From Psammoneis japonica (taxonomy: Eukaryota), in the NCBI GenBank assembly GCA_008632985.1, contig QPGO01000214.1, positions 1-64,000 of the forward strand: 64,000 nt of DNA, written 5' to 3'. Below the pieces are notes generated by a model that worked only from the letters and a program-made list of their open reading frames with translations, did no database searches and was not told the origin of the DNA. This document shows, one piece after another, positions 46,415 through 49,400 of this stretch. The stretch's first letter is position 1, and every line of letters begins with the position of its first letter. A program made the translations under genes and the position numbers.

Positions 46415-49400
46415 TTAGAAGACAGGGTGAAGACGGCGGATATTGATACGTTCAGTGACGTGAGGCGAGCGCTGGATGGTAACGGTTCCATTGGTATGGA
46501 CACGTACGATACGGAAAGGACCATCTTTGGTGTTGAGTTTGCGTTGGATGTCTTTGGTCATAACGAAGACTTGATCGCCGATGTTGTAGTCGTAAGTAAG
46601 ACGTTTTGCGTTTTCGCGGAGATTATTGCGTAGGACATCGCGCTTGCGACGGGTATTAATCATTTTCCAGTTCGCAAGATAAGTAGCAGAAATGACCATG
46701 TCTCGACCGAAGACAATTTGTCCGGGAGACGACATAAGGGCAGTATGGTAGGTACTGCGCAAGGCCCATGCAACGGATTGCAAAATTCCATGAATTGTGT
46801 CTTCATCATGATCGCGAGAAGGGAGATCCATCGCACGGAGAGAATCGGCTATCACTTGATGAATACGTTCAACGAACGCGTTGGCTTGAGGATTCTTGAT
46901 TGTTGTAGGTTTCGGTTTAACACCATAACTGTAGAGGAGATCTGTAAACTCGGAAGTGAATTCGGAACCGTTGTCATAAATGACAATTTCTGGTCGCGGA
47001 TAGCGACAAAACCACTCGCGATCGACGATAAGTGAAATGTCTTCGGACGTTTTGAACTTATAGTTCGCGAGTTCGACCCAACGGGTTGCGACATCAATAA
47101 TTGAAACGGCTCTGATTTTGCGATCGACACCATTTTTGTCGGCATACGTCCAGGGACCGAAAAGATCGACTTGAGTTGCCTGCCAAGGTTTATAAGTAGT
47201 ATCTGGAAGAGGTAATTCGCCATAGTTTGCCGTAGTGCGCTTGGATTTGGAACACGTGCGGCACTTACGGACAAAAGTACGGACTTTCGTCTGCATGTCG
47301 CGAATGTAAAAATGTGAAGCCAAAGTTTGGGAGGTGCGATTGGCACCAGGATGGCAGAGAGTTTCATGGTACCACCGTAGAACTGCAGGAAAAAGCGTTG
47401 GAGGGAGGACAATCTTGTTCTTGTAAAGGACAATCTGTTTTCCGTTGAACAGTTCGGCTGAGTAGGATTCGGACTTGTTGAGTCGTTGCTGAAGAGCAGA
47501 ATCTTTTTTCTGATGGTCGGCGATAATATCGAAAGTAACGGGGAATATTGAAGGATCGATTTCCAACGAAGTCATTTCCTCGTAATCGCTTTGATCGACT
47601 TGGACAATGGGATAGCGACTCAAAAAATCAGCCACGACATTCTCATGGCCTGGCAGGTGCTCGAAAGAGCAATCGCATTCCTCGAGAAGCAAACGCCAGC
47701 GTTTGACGCGTTCTGACTTGAATTTGTCAAATGTAAGATTTTTGTGATCGGTAAATAGGTAGCATCGATGACCAAAAAGGATGCTTTTGAAATTTTCGGT
47801 CGTTTCCACGAGTGACAGCAGCTCTTTTTCCATTGTCGTGTAGTTTCGTTGCGCTTGAGATAATTTTCGGCTGTAGAATGCAATTGGCCATTCGCCATCG
47901 TCAAAATCTTGAGCAATCACTGCACCAAGTTGACAATCACTCGCATCCGGATAGATCTTGAAAGGTTGAGAGAAGTCGGGGAATCGGAGGAGGATTTCGC
48001 GCGCCATAATTTTTTTCATCTGATTGAAAGCTTCCGTGTGGACGTCAGTCCACTTGAATTTGACTTTGTCTGATGACAGCGCAGTCAAGGGCGTAAGAGT
48101 GTGGCTGCGTCGGTACCACAATTTCTTTTTCTGAGGCTGAGTGCCTTTTGTAGTCATGGCACAGCCTAAGCAGTCGACGGTCTTGGCGGCGAGATGGGAT
48201 TCTTCGACATGTGCGTGAAGATTGTTCGCGAGGAGCCGTTGCAAGACGAGTTCGAGTCGTTGACAGTGATGGTTGAAGTTGTTCTTGGTAAAGAGGATGA
48301 CATTGTCGATGTAGACTATGACATCTTCCATGTCATGAAAAATGTCTGTCATGTAAGCTTGAAAAACATCGCTTGCCGGTTTGATTCCTTGCGGTGGGCG
48401 GTTGCAGCAATGCTTGCCCCACGGCAGGATGACACCGCAGAGTTTTTTTGACTCGTCGTCAAGCACGAAGTGACAGTAGCCTCGGTTGAGGTCCAAACAT
48501 GTCGCATGGGTAAAGCCGTTCATTTTCCATACGACGTCGTCGACAACAGGCAGTGGACATGGATGCCGTTCGAGACACTCGTTGAGTTTCCGTAAATCGG
48601 ATAAGAAACGGATACCACCGCTTTTCTTCGATCGGAAAAGACAGGGTGCGCCCCAAGGAGAGTGAAGTTTGCGCGTAATGACATCGATTTTTTCCAATTC
48701 ATCCACTTCTTTGCGAGCCATGGGATATAACGCTTGCGGAACAGTGTGAGCTTTCGCACAGCATGGACGCGATCCTGGTTTCAGGGTCAAATGGACGGGT
48801 TTACCGGGTGCAGCTCCAAGTGTACCATCGAACAATTGCGGGTGTCGTCCGAAGAGTTCGATGAGTTGGTGCTGTTGATCGTCATCAAGGTGTTTGCAGC
48901 GTAGAACCATGTCGCGATAATTGTGCTTGTCGCATGCATTGCTCGTCATACCTCGAACCTGACGGTTGACGGCATTCTGAAAGAACTTGGGTAATTCAGC
49001 ATCGCCGGGATGAATTGCATTAACTTCGACTTGGTCGAAAGAGCCCTTGGATCGCATGGATAGGGTAACATCGTCCCACGTGATTGTTTGATGTCGAAAA
49101 TCAAAAACGAGTCCCATTTCTGTGGCAGTTTTTCTTCCGATGATAATATCGTGTTTTCCTACGGCTTTGTCTTCCACATAAGCATCGACGGAAACCTTCT
49201 TGGACGATGCGAAGTCTGGGAACTTCAATGTCAGCGTCGCAATCTCGTGTAGATTAACGGTACTGTAACGGCCTTTAACCGGAACGTTACATTTACGGAT
49301 TTTGTGAGGAATCCCGCGAAGGGCTGAGCGCTTCACAAAATTGCGATTTGCGCCGGTATCGAGTAAAGCAACACGGAACTTGTGCATTCCAGAATGAGTA

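What the first reader, a model, noticed from the sequence alone, without database searches (positions are those of the whole stretch)
47600..48960. Young Gypsy caught mid-process: conserved RT/RNase H tyrosines are Cys/His while CpGs are largely intact
The LTRs differ at 1 of 291 positions, yet RT/RNase H motifs read RPCCAKAHT, RHPCPLP, GFTHAT, RGYCHF, WGKHCCNRPPQG, VDCLGC, DASDCQLG and LEECDCSFEHLPG. Gypsy consensus has Tyr at most of these positions (YPLP, GYY, GKYxY, YLGY, DASDY, EYDY..EY) and Leu in RLP (CTA->CCA). Each is a single TA->TG/CA step. CpG stays abundant here, so TA loss is separable from, and earlier than, CpG decay. Gag and integrase keep their Tyr codons, so the hit is focal, on the part most conserved between families, as homology- or small-RNA-guided targeting would predict.
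Basis: partly seen in the sequence, partly recalled or inferred. Interest (0 to 1): 0.85.

Follow-up and report, generated by a model that had tools for sequence, protein, structure and literature searches.

The report
Young retrotransposon with TA-site hypermutation
A recently inserted diatom retrotransposon has had about half of the TA steps in its reverse-transcriptase region rewritten to TG or CA, the mark of a TA-specific DNA-editing process so far reported only from one unrelated alga.

Summary
An intact-looking 4,816-nt Ty3/Gypsy element (46103-50918, minus strand; LTRs 290 of 291 identical) has Cys or His at 13 of 19 Tyr-majority columns inside RT/RNase H (47620-48940), against 0 of 20 in gag, protease and integrase. 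None of its 10 closest relatives shows any such change. Each change is a single TpA-to-TpG or TpA-to-CpA step, on both strands. No other substitution class is raised, and there are no CpG-type changes.

This is not a private oddity of the element. About 19 kb of the same window is sharply bounded repeat DNA with TpA observed/expected 0.04. Other copies of this family, in the one sequencing run that holds it, carry TG/CA where this copy has TA. The signature matches TpA-only hypermutation shown by mutation accumulation in Bigelowiella natans (2026 preprint). The host here is a diatom, for which six literature searches found no such report.

"Caught mid-process by small-RNA or homology targeting" is not shown. 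The patch also carries an 84-nt in-frame deletion, and the rest of the element is almost untouched. I favour a partly edited template carried in by recombination or trans-mobilisation (about 0.5) over focal editing after insertion (about 0.33).

The parts
46098..46102 (.). Target-site duplication, left copy (TTGGT).
   Evidence: The empty-site contig (table 5) skips 4821 nt with 5 letters shared at the joint.
46103..46393 (-). 3' LTR, 291 nt, TG..CA termini, 23 TpA.
46160..46161 (.). The only LTR-LTR difference: TA here, CA at 50685-50686.
46394..46404 (-). Polypurine tract (GGGGAAGCGAG on the element strand), abutting the 3' LTR.
   Evidence: read from the sequence.
46415..50554 (-). Single gag-pol open frame. 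Met at 50554, stop TAA at 46415-46417. The frame is open from 50560, giving 1381 codons.
   Evidence: The N-terminus MSAENCPF matches the relatives.
50039..50293 (-). gag-like region (weak Retrotrans_gag match, residues 90-174).
   Evidence: E = 0.0017, below the Pfam cut-off.
49349..49366 (-). Aspartic protease motif LLDTGA (residues 399-404).
   Evidence: D401 and G403 invariant. No Pfam protease hit.
47620..48940 (-). TpA-edited patch (RT plus RNase H, residues about 541-970). It holds 30 TpA (observed/expected 0.34). 13 of 19 Tyr-majority columns are Cys/His. There are 16-18 single-step TpA>TpG/CpA changes at conserved columns.
48161..48628 (-). Reverse transcriptase domain (RVT_1, residues 645-800). 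Motif C reads YIDN, as in all 10 closest relatives.
48127..48128 (-). Junction of an in-frame 84-nt (28-residue) deletion. It removes the conserved KKILPILRF...QLRGFLGLVNYY stretch.
   Evidence: all 18 aligned relatives have the segment. table 7: loose ends of 5 and 2 contigs at 48122 and 48127 carry it in other copies (hand translation).
47678..48052 (-). RNase H domain (RT_RNaseH_2 and RT_RNaseH, residues 837-961).
46889..47404 (-). Integrase (zinc-binding H2C2 residues 1053-1108, core residues 1129-1224). Its Tyr codons are kept.
50628..50918 (-). 5' LTR, 291 nt, 22 TpA.
50919..50923 (.). Target-site duplication, right copy (CTGGT). 4 of 5 letters match the left copy.
51861..57374 (.). Context: an old LTR-flanked element, fully TpA- and CpG-depleted (TpA observed/expected 0.00-0.09). 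Its LTRs, 51861-52400 and 56876-57374, are 72% identical with 11 TG/CA double mismatches.
20000..27500 (.). Context: the largest TpA-free island in the window. The others are 1-3400, 7550-9000 and 59500-61000, with weaker depletion continuing to about 63500.

Best explanation
The element is a Ty3/Gypsy LTR retrotransposon of a diatom that inserted very recently. Its RT/RNase H segment (47620-48940) bears the footprint of a host process that changes DNA only at 5'-TA-3'. The A becomes G on either strand, giving TG or CA.

The same process has removed about 96% of TpA from older repeat DNA in this window and from other copies of this family. It matches the TpA-only hypermutation measured in Bigelowiella natans mutation-accumulation lines.

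The chemistry most likely is adenine deamination in DNA (A to inosine, read as G). This step is inferred, following the preprint's proposal. No enzyme was seen here.

Such changes cannot create stop codons, so the 1381-codon frame stays open although the enzyme is wrecked: 13 conserved Tyr are replaced and 28 residues are deleted.

Timing is inferred and is the weaker half of the claim. The patch was probably edited in an older chromosomal copy. It then entered this insertion by template switching between co-packaged RNAs, or by trans-mobilisation of an already defective copy. Since insertion the element has had only a trace of editing (the one TA/CA difference between the LTRs).

My odds: the identity of the process about 0.85; the patch inherited rather than made in place about 0.5.
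For: Specificity.
- At 251 conserved columns in the patch, the private single-step changes are TA>TG 11, TA>CA 5 and ambiguous TA>TG 2. Other A:T>G:C changes number only 2, and there are 0 CpG-type changes.
- At 287 columns outside the patch there is 1 TA>TG.
- All other classes occur at equal rates: 31 of 251 inside against 38 of 287 outside, p = 0.8.
- Both strands are hit, and the two kinds are interleaved.

A host-wide process.
- 19.4 kb of islands have TpA 0.04, CpG 0.30 and TG/CA 1.80. Other dinucleotides are mostly near background; GpC is up (1.26 against 1.01) and GpA/TpC down (0.96 against 1.18).
- Island borders are sharp within about 50-150 nt where inspected, and on its left side one island begins at the LTR of an old LTR element.
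- In run X1 the family's summed contig depth is about 230-3200 per bin, against 47-80 in the flanks.
- Window-to-contig changes in X1 are A>G 91, T>C 108, G>A 58, C>T 42 and transversions 55.
- Of the 23 listed A>G or T>C places inside the element, 16 are TpA in the window, where 16% is expected (p = 2e-8).

Precedent. bioRxiv 10.64898/2026.01.13.699255 (abstract, Results and Discussion read) reports 230 of 231 mutations in two integrated viral regions as A>G or T>C. All of those 230 fall on TpA. The rate is about 6e-7 per site per generation.

For inheritance of the patch.
- Editing outside the patch is about 2%: 1 of 45 LTR TpA sites and 1 conserved column.
- The right border is abrupt: residues 962, 964 and 968 are changed, and then 10 of 10 Tyr are kept.
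- An 84-nt deletion bordered by Lys-Lys codons lies inside the patch, while other copies keep that segment.
- Old copies are depleted evenly, LTRs included.
- Homologous copies cover the whole element, not RT/RNase H alone.
Against: - No copy was shown to share the patch's TG/CA states. The read-laying table printed only 40 of 359 differing places, so the state of other copies at the 13 Tyr sites is unknown.
- The patch coincides with the RT-RNase H domain limits.
- From the preprint's figures I infer a half-life of a TpA of roughly 4e4 generations. Editing in place could therefore reach 50% while the LTRs stay identical.
- The one LTR difference shows that in-place editing has touched this copy.
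- Tandem or dispersed repeats at 4000-7450 keep normal TpA, so what marks a target is unknown.
- Run X1 may be the sample the window was assembled from, so it is not independent support.
- No deaminase, small RNA or methylation data were available.
Confidence: 0.5

Rival explanations
1. Editing in place after insertion. The TpA editor was directed to the RT/RNase H part of the new copy first, by small RNAs, homology to other families or local transcription. The element is seen part-way to the fully TpA-free state.
For: - The patch matches the limits of the most conserved domains.
- Kept and changed Tyr codons are interleaved (695 kept, 696 changed), as expected for site-by-site editing.
- The one LTR difference is TA against CA, so in-place editing has begun.
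- The B. natans rates make 50% loss feasible within about 1e4-1e5 generations (my inference).
- Island borders are sharp, so targeting can have fine resolution.
Against: - It needs a contrast of at least 25-fold within one 4.8-kb element (about 50-68% loss against about 2%).
- Family copies at least 80% alike cover all parts of the element at similar depth, so homology would not pick out RT/RNase H.
- Old copies show no sign of uneven loss.
- The 84-nt deletion would have to be a separate coincidence, or the copy was already defective.
Confidence: 0.33
2. Editing during the retrotransposition cycle: an ADAR-like enzyme on the genomic RNA, a deaminase on the single-stranded minus-strand cDNA, or error-prone reverse transcription with skewed nucleotide pools.
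For: - It would leave both LTRs identical.
- It could be regional.
- ADAR-type enzymes prefer U before the edited A (stated in the preprint's Discussion).
Against: - RNA editing would give only A>G on the element strand, and minus-strand cDNA editing only T>C. Here 8 Tyr>Cys and 5 Tyr>His are interleaved, and TA>TG 11-13 against TA>CA 5.
- Specificity for T before A is near absolute: 16-18 of 18-20 A:T>G:C changes.
- Within repeat pairs inside the islands (including the LTR pair of the old element), copies differ from each other largely at CpG and TG/CA sites (14 of 19 and 5 of 7 difference events in the two younger pairs, 20 of 72 in the old LTR pair), which points to change in the chromosome.
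- The B. natans process acts on chromosomal DNA in dividing cells.
Confidence: 0.05
3. Assembly or base-calling artefact: modified bases in silenced repeats are read systematically as G or C.
For: The window's sequencing technology is unknown to me. The exact patch could not be checked read by read, because the table was truncated.
Against: - Contigs built from a public run show the same TA against TG/CA differences among family copies, at depths of tens to thousands.
- The islands also differ by insertions, deletions and transversions, as aged DNA does.
- The changes respect neither strand nor a fixed outcome.
Confidence: 0.03
4. The Cys/His residues are native to this family or were selected.
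For: None found. YIDN in motif C is native, which shows that the clade does tolerate some odd motifs.
Against: - There are 0 such changes in each of the 10 closest relatives.
- Y 624, H 28 and C 4 of 951 residues at the 13 columns in the metagenome loci that align there, of 78 fetched.
- The element is the only one of 233 relatives with 12 or more Tyr columns that exceeds 20% C/H.
Confidence: 0.01

Closest known systems
TpA-targeted hypermutation of integrated viral DNA in Bigelowiella natans (Mettrop et al., bioRxiv 10.64898/2026.01.13.699255; abstract, Results and Discussion read)
   Same: - Almost only A>G and T>C changes.
- Only at TpA, on both strands.
- Regional, aimed at foreign or mobile DNA.
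- Long-term trace of TpA depletion with CpA+TpG gain in clusters.
- Reverse-transcriptase and DDE-endonuclease domains are enriched among TpA-depleted genes there.
   Different: - The host here is a diatom (stramenopile), not a chlorarachniophyte (rhizarian).
- The targets here are LTR retrotransposons and unannotated repeats, not a giant-virus and a virophage insert.
- Depletion here is near total (0.04, against 0.45 for their viral region).
- Here it goes together with CpG loss, which the preprint does not mention (0 occurrences of 'CpG').
- Here there are only footprints, no measured de novo mutations.
- A 1.3-kb sub-element patch has no counterpart there.
Repeat-induced point mutation (RIP) of fungi
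   Same: A DNA-level, dinucleotide-specific transition process that disables mobile elements inside sharply bounded regions.
   Different: RIP changes C:G to T:A, mostly at CpA, and so creates TpA. Here TpA is destroyed and TG/CA is created, the opposite direction. Duplication alone does not suffice here, since the repeats at 4000-7450 are untouched. The RIP features are recalled, supported by the preprint's own comparison.
ADAR and APOBEC editing traces in animal retroelements
   Same: Deaminase-type transition clusters that cripple retroelement genes while often leaving frames open.
   Different: Those traces are strand-specific (A>G for ADAR on RNA, G>A for APOBEC on minus-strand cDNA) and arise during the replication cycle. 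Here both strands are changed, the context is strictly TpA, and there is evidence for change in the chromosome. Their properties are recalled, and partly stated.
Methyl-CpG decay of silenced transposons
   Same: It yields the same products (TG/CA). It co-occurs with TpA loss in 23 of the 46 TpA-low windows, and at intermediate level in 11 more.
   Different: It is absent from the patch: 0 CpG-type changes and CpG observed/expected 1.22. Related elements from other hosts show CpG loss without TpA loss (L029: CpG 0.12, TpA 0.62; L030: 0.19, 0.54).
Depletion of CTAG by very-short-patch repair in Escherichia coli
   Same: A T:G-mismatch repair activity that turns TA into CA/TG as a side effect and depletes a TA-containing word.
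   Different: It is bacterial, tied to one methylase site and genome-wide. It is offered only as an alternative chemistry to adenine deamination (a thymine-removing mismatch glycosylase acting in silent chromatin).

Membership tests
Ty3/Gypsy (Metaviridae-type) LTR retrotransposon | Two long terminal repeats with TG..CA ends | tested here: met
   291-nt LTRs, 290 of 291 identical, with TG..CA ends.
Ty3/Gypsy (Metaviridae-type) LTR retrotransposon | Short target-site duplication | tested here: met
   TTGGT and CTGGT, 4 of 5 letters alike. An empty-site contig skips 4821 nt with 5 letters shared at the joint.
Ty3/Gypsy (Metaviridae-type) LTR retrotransposon | Domain order protease - RT - RNase H - integrase | tested here: met
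   DTG motif at residues 401-403, RVT_1 645-800, RNase H 837-961, integrase 1053-1224.
Ty3/Gypsy (Metaviridae-type) LTR retrotransposon | tRNA primer-binding site next to the 5' LTR | tested here: inconclusive
   No TGG-type site follows the LTR. There is no complementary match of 7 nt or more to the LTR, and no tRNA gene in the window. A TGGCGCC word lies inside the last 15 nt of the LTR.
Ty3/Gypsy (Metaviridae-type) LTR retrotransposon | Polypurine tract before the 3' LTR | tested here: met
   GGGGAAGCGAG abuts the LTR.
Ty3/Gypsy (Metaviridae-type) LTR retrotransposon | Catalytic YxDD in RT motif C | tested here: not met
   It reads YIDN, but so do all 10 closest relatives. More distant relatives read Y[LIM]DD. 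This is a clade trait, not damage in this copy.
TpA-targeted hypermutation (B. natans type) | The excess consists of A:T>G:C transitions only | tested here: met
   In the patch, 16-18 TpA-type changes. Other classes occur at the same rate inside and outside (31 of 251 against 38 of 287).
TpA-targeted hypermutation (B. natans type) | Changes fall on TpA only | tested here: met
   16-18 of 18-20 A:T>G:C changes in the patch. 16 of 23 listed differences to other copies, against 16% expected.
TpA-targeted hypermutation (B. natans type) | Both strands are affected (TpG and CpA outcomes) | tested here: met
   8 Tyr>Cys and 5 Tyr>His, interleaved. TG and CA are equally enriched in the islands, 1.80 each.
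TpA-targeted hypermutation (B. natans type) | [quoted passage not shown] | tested here: met
   46 of 128 windows have TpA below 0.25, grouped in 5 islands.
TpA-targeted hypermutation (B. natans type) | Targets are foreign or mobile DNA | tested here: inconclusive
   Shown for this family and for one old LTR element. 30 of 31 island reading frames have no Pfam match, and one is a GDSL-lipase-like frame.
TpA-targeted hypermutation (B. natans type) | De novo mutations at about 1e-7 to 1e-6 per site per generation in dividing cells | not testable with these tools
   Needs mutation-accumulation lines or a time series of the strain.
TpA-targeted hypermutation (B. natans type) | An ADAT2-like DNA adenine deaminase as the agent (itself only proposed) | not testable with these tools
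   No whole genome is held for this window.
Fungal RIP | C:G>T:A transitions that raise TpA | tested here: not met
   The direction is the opposite: TpA 0.04 and TG/CA 1.80 in the islands.
ADAR-type RNA hyperediting | A>G on one strand per cluster | tested here: not met
   A>G and T>C on the element strand are interleaved.
Methyl-CpG decay | CpG>TpG/CpA changes | tested here: not met
   In the patch, 0 such changes at 251 conserved columns and CpG observed/expected 1.22. It is met in the older islands (CpG 0.30).

The most novel reading that the evidence does not exclude
Diatoms have a guided DNA editor that rewrites A to G only at TpA. It can be aimed at a stretch of about 1 kb in a newly inserted retrotransposon, within thousands of generations and before methylation-driven CpG decay starts. 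The RT/RNase H patch would then be the first stroke of that defence, caught in place. Its presence in both a stramenopile and a rhizarian would make it an old, widespread eukaryotic genome-defence system whose enzyme could be found by comparing genomes with and without TpA-free islands.
Probability: 0.3. Interest if true: 0.9.

Novelty: new member of a known kind. Interest (0 to 1): 0.7.

Why it matters
TpA-only hypermutation has so far one description: a 2026 preprint on one chlorarachniophyte, concerning giant-virus and virophage inserts. Finding the same footprint in a diatom, on LTR retrotransposons and at near-complete depletion, has three consequences.

- The process is either ancient or arose more than once. 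It may be a general genome-defence layer of marine algae alongside cytosine methylation.
- It gives a second lineage for phylogenetic profiling of the unknown enzyme.
- A young, still polymorphic element with a half-edited 1.3-kb patch is a natural handle on kinetics and targeting.

There is also a practical point. This class of change never creates stop codons, so annotation pipelines will call such dead elements intact. Tyr-to-Cys/His at conserved sites is a simple diagnostic.

Tried and rejected
- **Whole genome.** None is held for this window, so no family-wide alignment was possible.
- **Other copies in the window.** tblastn with 9 Gypsy proteins found no match outside 46000-51000.
- **Close copies in the protein collection.** The best matches are only 57% (full length) and 38-66% (fragments) identical.
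- **Sequencing runs.** There is one DNA holder and two near-empty runs of the same sample. No RNA holder is listed.
- **Read laying.** 319 of 359 differing places were not printed.
- **Island content.** Of the 49 island reading frames of at least 120 residues, 31 were scanned against Pfam, and 1 matched, a GDSL lipase below the curated cut-off.
- **Metagenome relatives.** 78 loci were fetched and none is TpA-depleted (0.54-1.07). Both search patterns contain Tyr, so edited copies would be missed.
- **Primer-binding site.** No canonical site, no self-priming match and no tRNA gene were found.
- **Earlier findings of this scan.** There is nothing for this genome or this sequence. The word search returned only unrelated phage items.
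- **Structure search.** It failed on a frame error and was not needed afterwards.
- The binomial test used n = 21 by my miscount. It was redone with n = 23.
- **Readings rejected.** Native Cys/His, RIP, ADAR or APOBEC-type editing, and CpG decay as the cause of the patch (see the rival explanations and the membership test).
- **Literature.** Searches found no report of TpA hypermutation in diatoms. The library omits most subscription journals, and the preprint's supplements were not read.
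Full report
**What is there.** Two direct repeats, 46103-46395 and 50628-50920, differ at one place. Trimmed to TG..CA they are 291-nt LTRs, flanked by TTGGT and CTGGT. Between them, on the minus strand, one frame of 1381 codons is open from 50560 to 46415. Its Met is at 50554, and the N-terminus MSAENCPF is shared with relatives. Pfam finds a weak gag match, RVT_1, two RNase H models, the integrase zinc domain and the integrase core. The protease motif LLDTGA is visible. 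A polypurine run abuts the 3' LTR. No canonical primer-binding site was found. This is a Ty3/Gypsy element of 4,816 nt.

**Host.** Named relatives of its polyprotein come from the diatoms Fistulifera, Ditylum and Thalassiosira. A neighbouring host DENN-domain frame (33217-34236) has its best named matches in Attheya, Fragilariopsis, Pseudo-nitzschia and Cyclotella at 56-60% identity. The host is a diatom.

**The observation.** I aligned the polyprotein with 18 relatives. The 10 closest are 46-52% identical over the full length.
- At columns where at least 9 of the 10 closest agree, this element has 6 Tyr>Cys, 3 Tyr>His and 3 Phe>His. The same leave-one-out test gives 0 for each of the 10 relatives.
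- At columns where at least 6 of 10 have Tyr, 13 of 19 are Cys/His within residues 543-968 (window 47659-48934). The count is 0 of 20 outside, where 15 are still Tyr (Fisher p = 3e-6).
- In the metagenome loci of related elements that align at these 13 columns (78 were fetched), the residues read Y 624, H 28 and C 4 of 951.

One correction: the RT motif C reads YIDN in this element and in all 10 closest relatives. That oddity belongs to the clade.

**The nucleotide spectrum.** For every private single-step change at conserved columns I inferred the base change and its neighbours.

| Class | Patch (251 columns) | Outside (287 columns) |
|---|---|---|
| TA>TG | 11 | 1 |
| TA>CA | 5 | 0 |
| Ambiguous TA>TG or transversion | 2 | 0 |
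| Other A:T>G:C transitions | 2 | 1 |
| G:C>A:T transitions | 5 | 2 (plus 2 ambiguous with transversion) |
| Transversions | 13 | 16 |
| Multi-step | 9 | 17 |
| CpG-type | 0 | 0 |

- All four Ile>Val changes sit behind a T.
- Everything other than the TpA class occurs at the same rate inside and outside (31 of 251 against 38 of 287, p = 0.8).
- TpA observed/expected is 0.34 in 47620-48940 (30 TpA). It is 0.64-0.66 in the rest of the frame and 0.83-0.85 in the LTRs. CpG is 1.22 against 1.48-1.54.
- The RT/RNase H part is not natively poor in TpA. In 67 related loci the ratio of that part to the rest has median 1.04 and minimum 0.82. Here it is 0.52.
- Tyr>Cys (A>G on the element strand, 8 sites) and Tyr>His (T>C, 5 sites) are interleaved.
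- From the genetic code, A>G and T>C changes cannot turn a sense codon into TAA, TAG or TGA. This explains why the frame is still open.

**A further defect.** It removes a stretch present in all 18 aligned relatives. At the junction (48127/48128), 5 and 2 contigs of other copies run on with unlike sequence (table 7). By my hand translation these read ILPLLCFAR at one side and RGFIGFVNCC at the other. Other copies therefore keep the segment. There too the conserved NYY reads NCC.

**The surroundings change the picture.** A dinucleotide scan of the whole window shows five islands: 1-3400, 7550-9000, 20000-27500, 52000-57500 and 59500-61000, with weaker depletion continuing to about 63500. Together, 19.4 kb have TpA 0.04, CpG 0.30 and TG/CA 1.80. 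Other dinucleotides are mostly near background (GpC 1.26 against 1.01, GpA/TpC 0.96 against 1.18). The 32.8 kb of background DNA scored has TpA 0.59 and CpG 1.02.
- Borders are sharp. TpA is dense up to 51808, nearly absent until 57870, then dense again.
- That island is an old LTR-flanked element. Its LTRs, 51861-52400 and 56876-57374, are 72% identical and differ by 11 TG/CA double mismatches, 7 CpG-type and 2 TpA-type sites. LTRs are identical at insertion, so these outcomes arose in the chromosome.
- In two other island repeat pairs, 14 of 19 and 5 of 7 difference events are at such sites.
- Of 128 windows of 500 nt, 46 are TpA-low. Among these, CpG is low in 23, intermediate in 11 and normal in 12. 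All 82 TpA-normal windows have normal CpG. TpA loss therefore occurs without CpG loss, never the reverse.
- Repeats at 4000-7450 have normal TpA, so duplication alone does not mark a target.

**Other copies of the family.** One public run (coded X1; it may be the assembly's own sample) holds 58% of the element's sampled words. Its contigs were laid on 45600-51400 at 80% likeness or more.
- Summed depth per bin is about 230-3200 on the element, against 47-80 on the flanks.
- 790 pieces were laid: 215 at 99% or more, 259 at 95-99%, 208 at 90-95% and 108 below 90%.
- Places where contigs differ from the window are A>G 91, T>C 108, G>A 58, C>T 42 and transversions 55.
- Only 40 of 359 places were printed. 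Of the 23 printed A>G or T>C places inside the element, 16 are TpA in the window, where 16% is expected (p = 2e-8).
- Four printed G>A or C>T places lie in window CpGs.
- One contig joins 46098 to 50920, skipping 4821 nt with 5 shared letters. This is an empty site on a diverged haplotype or strain, so the insertion is polymorphic and young.

**What is known.** Six literature searches found one description of such a process: Mettrop et al., bioRxiv 10.64898/2026.01.13.699255. I read its abstract, Results and Discussion.
- In mutation-accumulation lines of Bigelowiella natans, 231 of 302 nuclear mutations fell in an integrated giant-virus region and a virophage region.
- 230 of those 231 were A>G or T>C, and all 230 were on TpA.
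- The rate was about 6e-7 per site per generation, and the process was active in only some lines.
- TpA-depleted genes were enriched for reverse transcriptase and DDE endonuclease domains.
- An ADAT2-like adenine deaminase was proposed as the agent.
- The text does not mention diatoms, CpG or retrotransposons.

The footprint here matches on every feature I could test (see the membership test). It differs in host lineage, target class, completeness and its association with CpG loss.

Related elements from other hosts show CpG loss without TpA loss (L029, L030, L065). This makes the TpA process look host-specific. The caveat is that both search patterns contained Tyr.

**How the patch arose.** The both-strand, interleaved pattern argues against editing of the genomic RNA or of minus-strand cDNA. 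It points to double-stranded chromosomal DNA, as in B. natans. Two histories remain.

(a) *Inherited.* A chromosomal copy lost half to two-thirds of its TpA. Its RT/RNase H stretch then reached this insertion by template switching between co-packaged RNAs, by trans-mobilisation of a defective lineage, or by later gene conversion. In favour:
- the contrast of about 25-fold with the rest of the element (1 of 45 LTR TpA sites and 1 conserved column);
- the abrupt right border;
- the deletion bordered by Lys-Lys codons inside the patch;
- even depletion of old copies, LTRs included;
- homologous copies covering all parts of the element alike.

(b) *Made in place* by focal targeting. In favour:
- the coincidence with the most conserved domains;
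- the site-by-site mosaic of kept and changed Tyr;
- the TA/CA difference between the LTRs;
- the speed of the process. From the preprint's figures I infer a TpA half-life near 4e4 generations.

I put (a) at about 0.5 and (b) at about 0.33. The data at hand cannot decide, and a census of the family in the full assembly would.

**Verdict.** "Caught mid-process by guided targeting" remains an open and attractive possibility. The phenomenon is a new instance, in diatoms and on retrotransposons, of a kind of hypermutation described once, very recently, in an unrelated alga.

Noticed in passing
window 1-3400, 7550-9000, 20000-27500, 52000-57500, 59500-61000 (weaker to about 63500): Islands totalling about 19 kb with TpA observed/expected 0.04, TG/CA 1.80 and variable CpG loss (0.30 overall). 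Where inspected, the borders are sharp within about 50-150 nt. Of the 31 island reading frames scanned, 30 have no Pfam match.
   Followed up: partly
window 51861-57374: Old LTR-flanked element, fully TpA- and CpG-depleted. It lies 940 nt from the young element. Its LTRs are 72% identical and differ by many TG/CA double mismatches.
   Followed up: partly
window 48298-48309 (RT motif C) and proteins P0002-P0014: RT motif C reads YIDN instead of YxDD in this element and in all 10 closest relatives. Several of those relatives are full-length polyproteins. More distant relatives read Y[LIM]DD. This is a clade of Gypsy elements with Asn in place of the second catalytic Asp.
   Followed up: no
window 60883-61584 (+): GDSL-lipase-like reading frame (below the Pfam cut-off) inside DNA with TpA 0.06-0.22 but near-normal CpG. 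A host-type gene or pseudogene may have been caught in a TpA-edited zone.
   Followed up: no
window 4000-7450: Several tandem or dispersed repeats (72-90% identical pairs) keep normal TpA (0.5-0.9). Repetition alone does not attract the TpA process.
   Followed up: partly
window 7757-9100 (+): A 448-codon open frame rich in His, Pro, Thr and Ser, over GC-rich (about 60%) internally repeated DNA with no TpA at all. It is unclear whether it is a gene or an edited repeat array.
   Followed up: no
window 24278-24677: A 400-nt stretch that matches its own reverse complement at 80% identity (a palindrome) inside the largest TpA-free island.
   Followed up: no
window 15038-16036 (-): Host reading frame with an ADP-ribosyltransferase domain (Pfam ART and ADPrib_exo_Tox, E about 1e-11).
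   Followed up: no
window 50628-50642 and 46103-46117 (last 15 nt of each LTR on the element strand): The LTR ends with TTGGCGCCACTTGGCA, which contains a tRNA-3'-end-like TGGCGCC word. No primer-binding site follows the LTR, so priming of this family is unexplained.
   Followed up: partly
loci L029, L030, L065 (metagenome contigs): Related Gypsy elements from other hosts with strong CpG depletion (0.12-0.36) but ordinary TpA (0.54-0.69). This is the reverse of the order of decay seen in this window.
   Followed up: no
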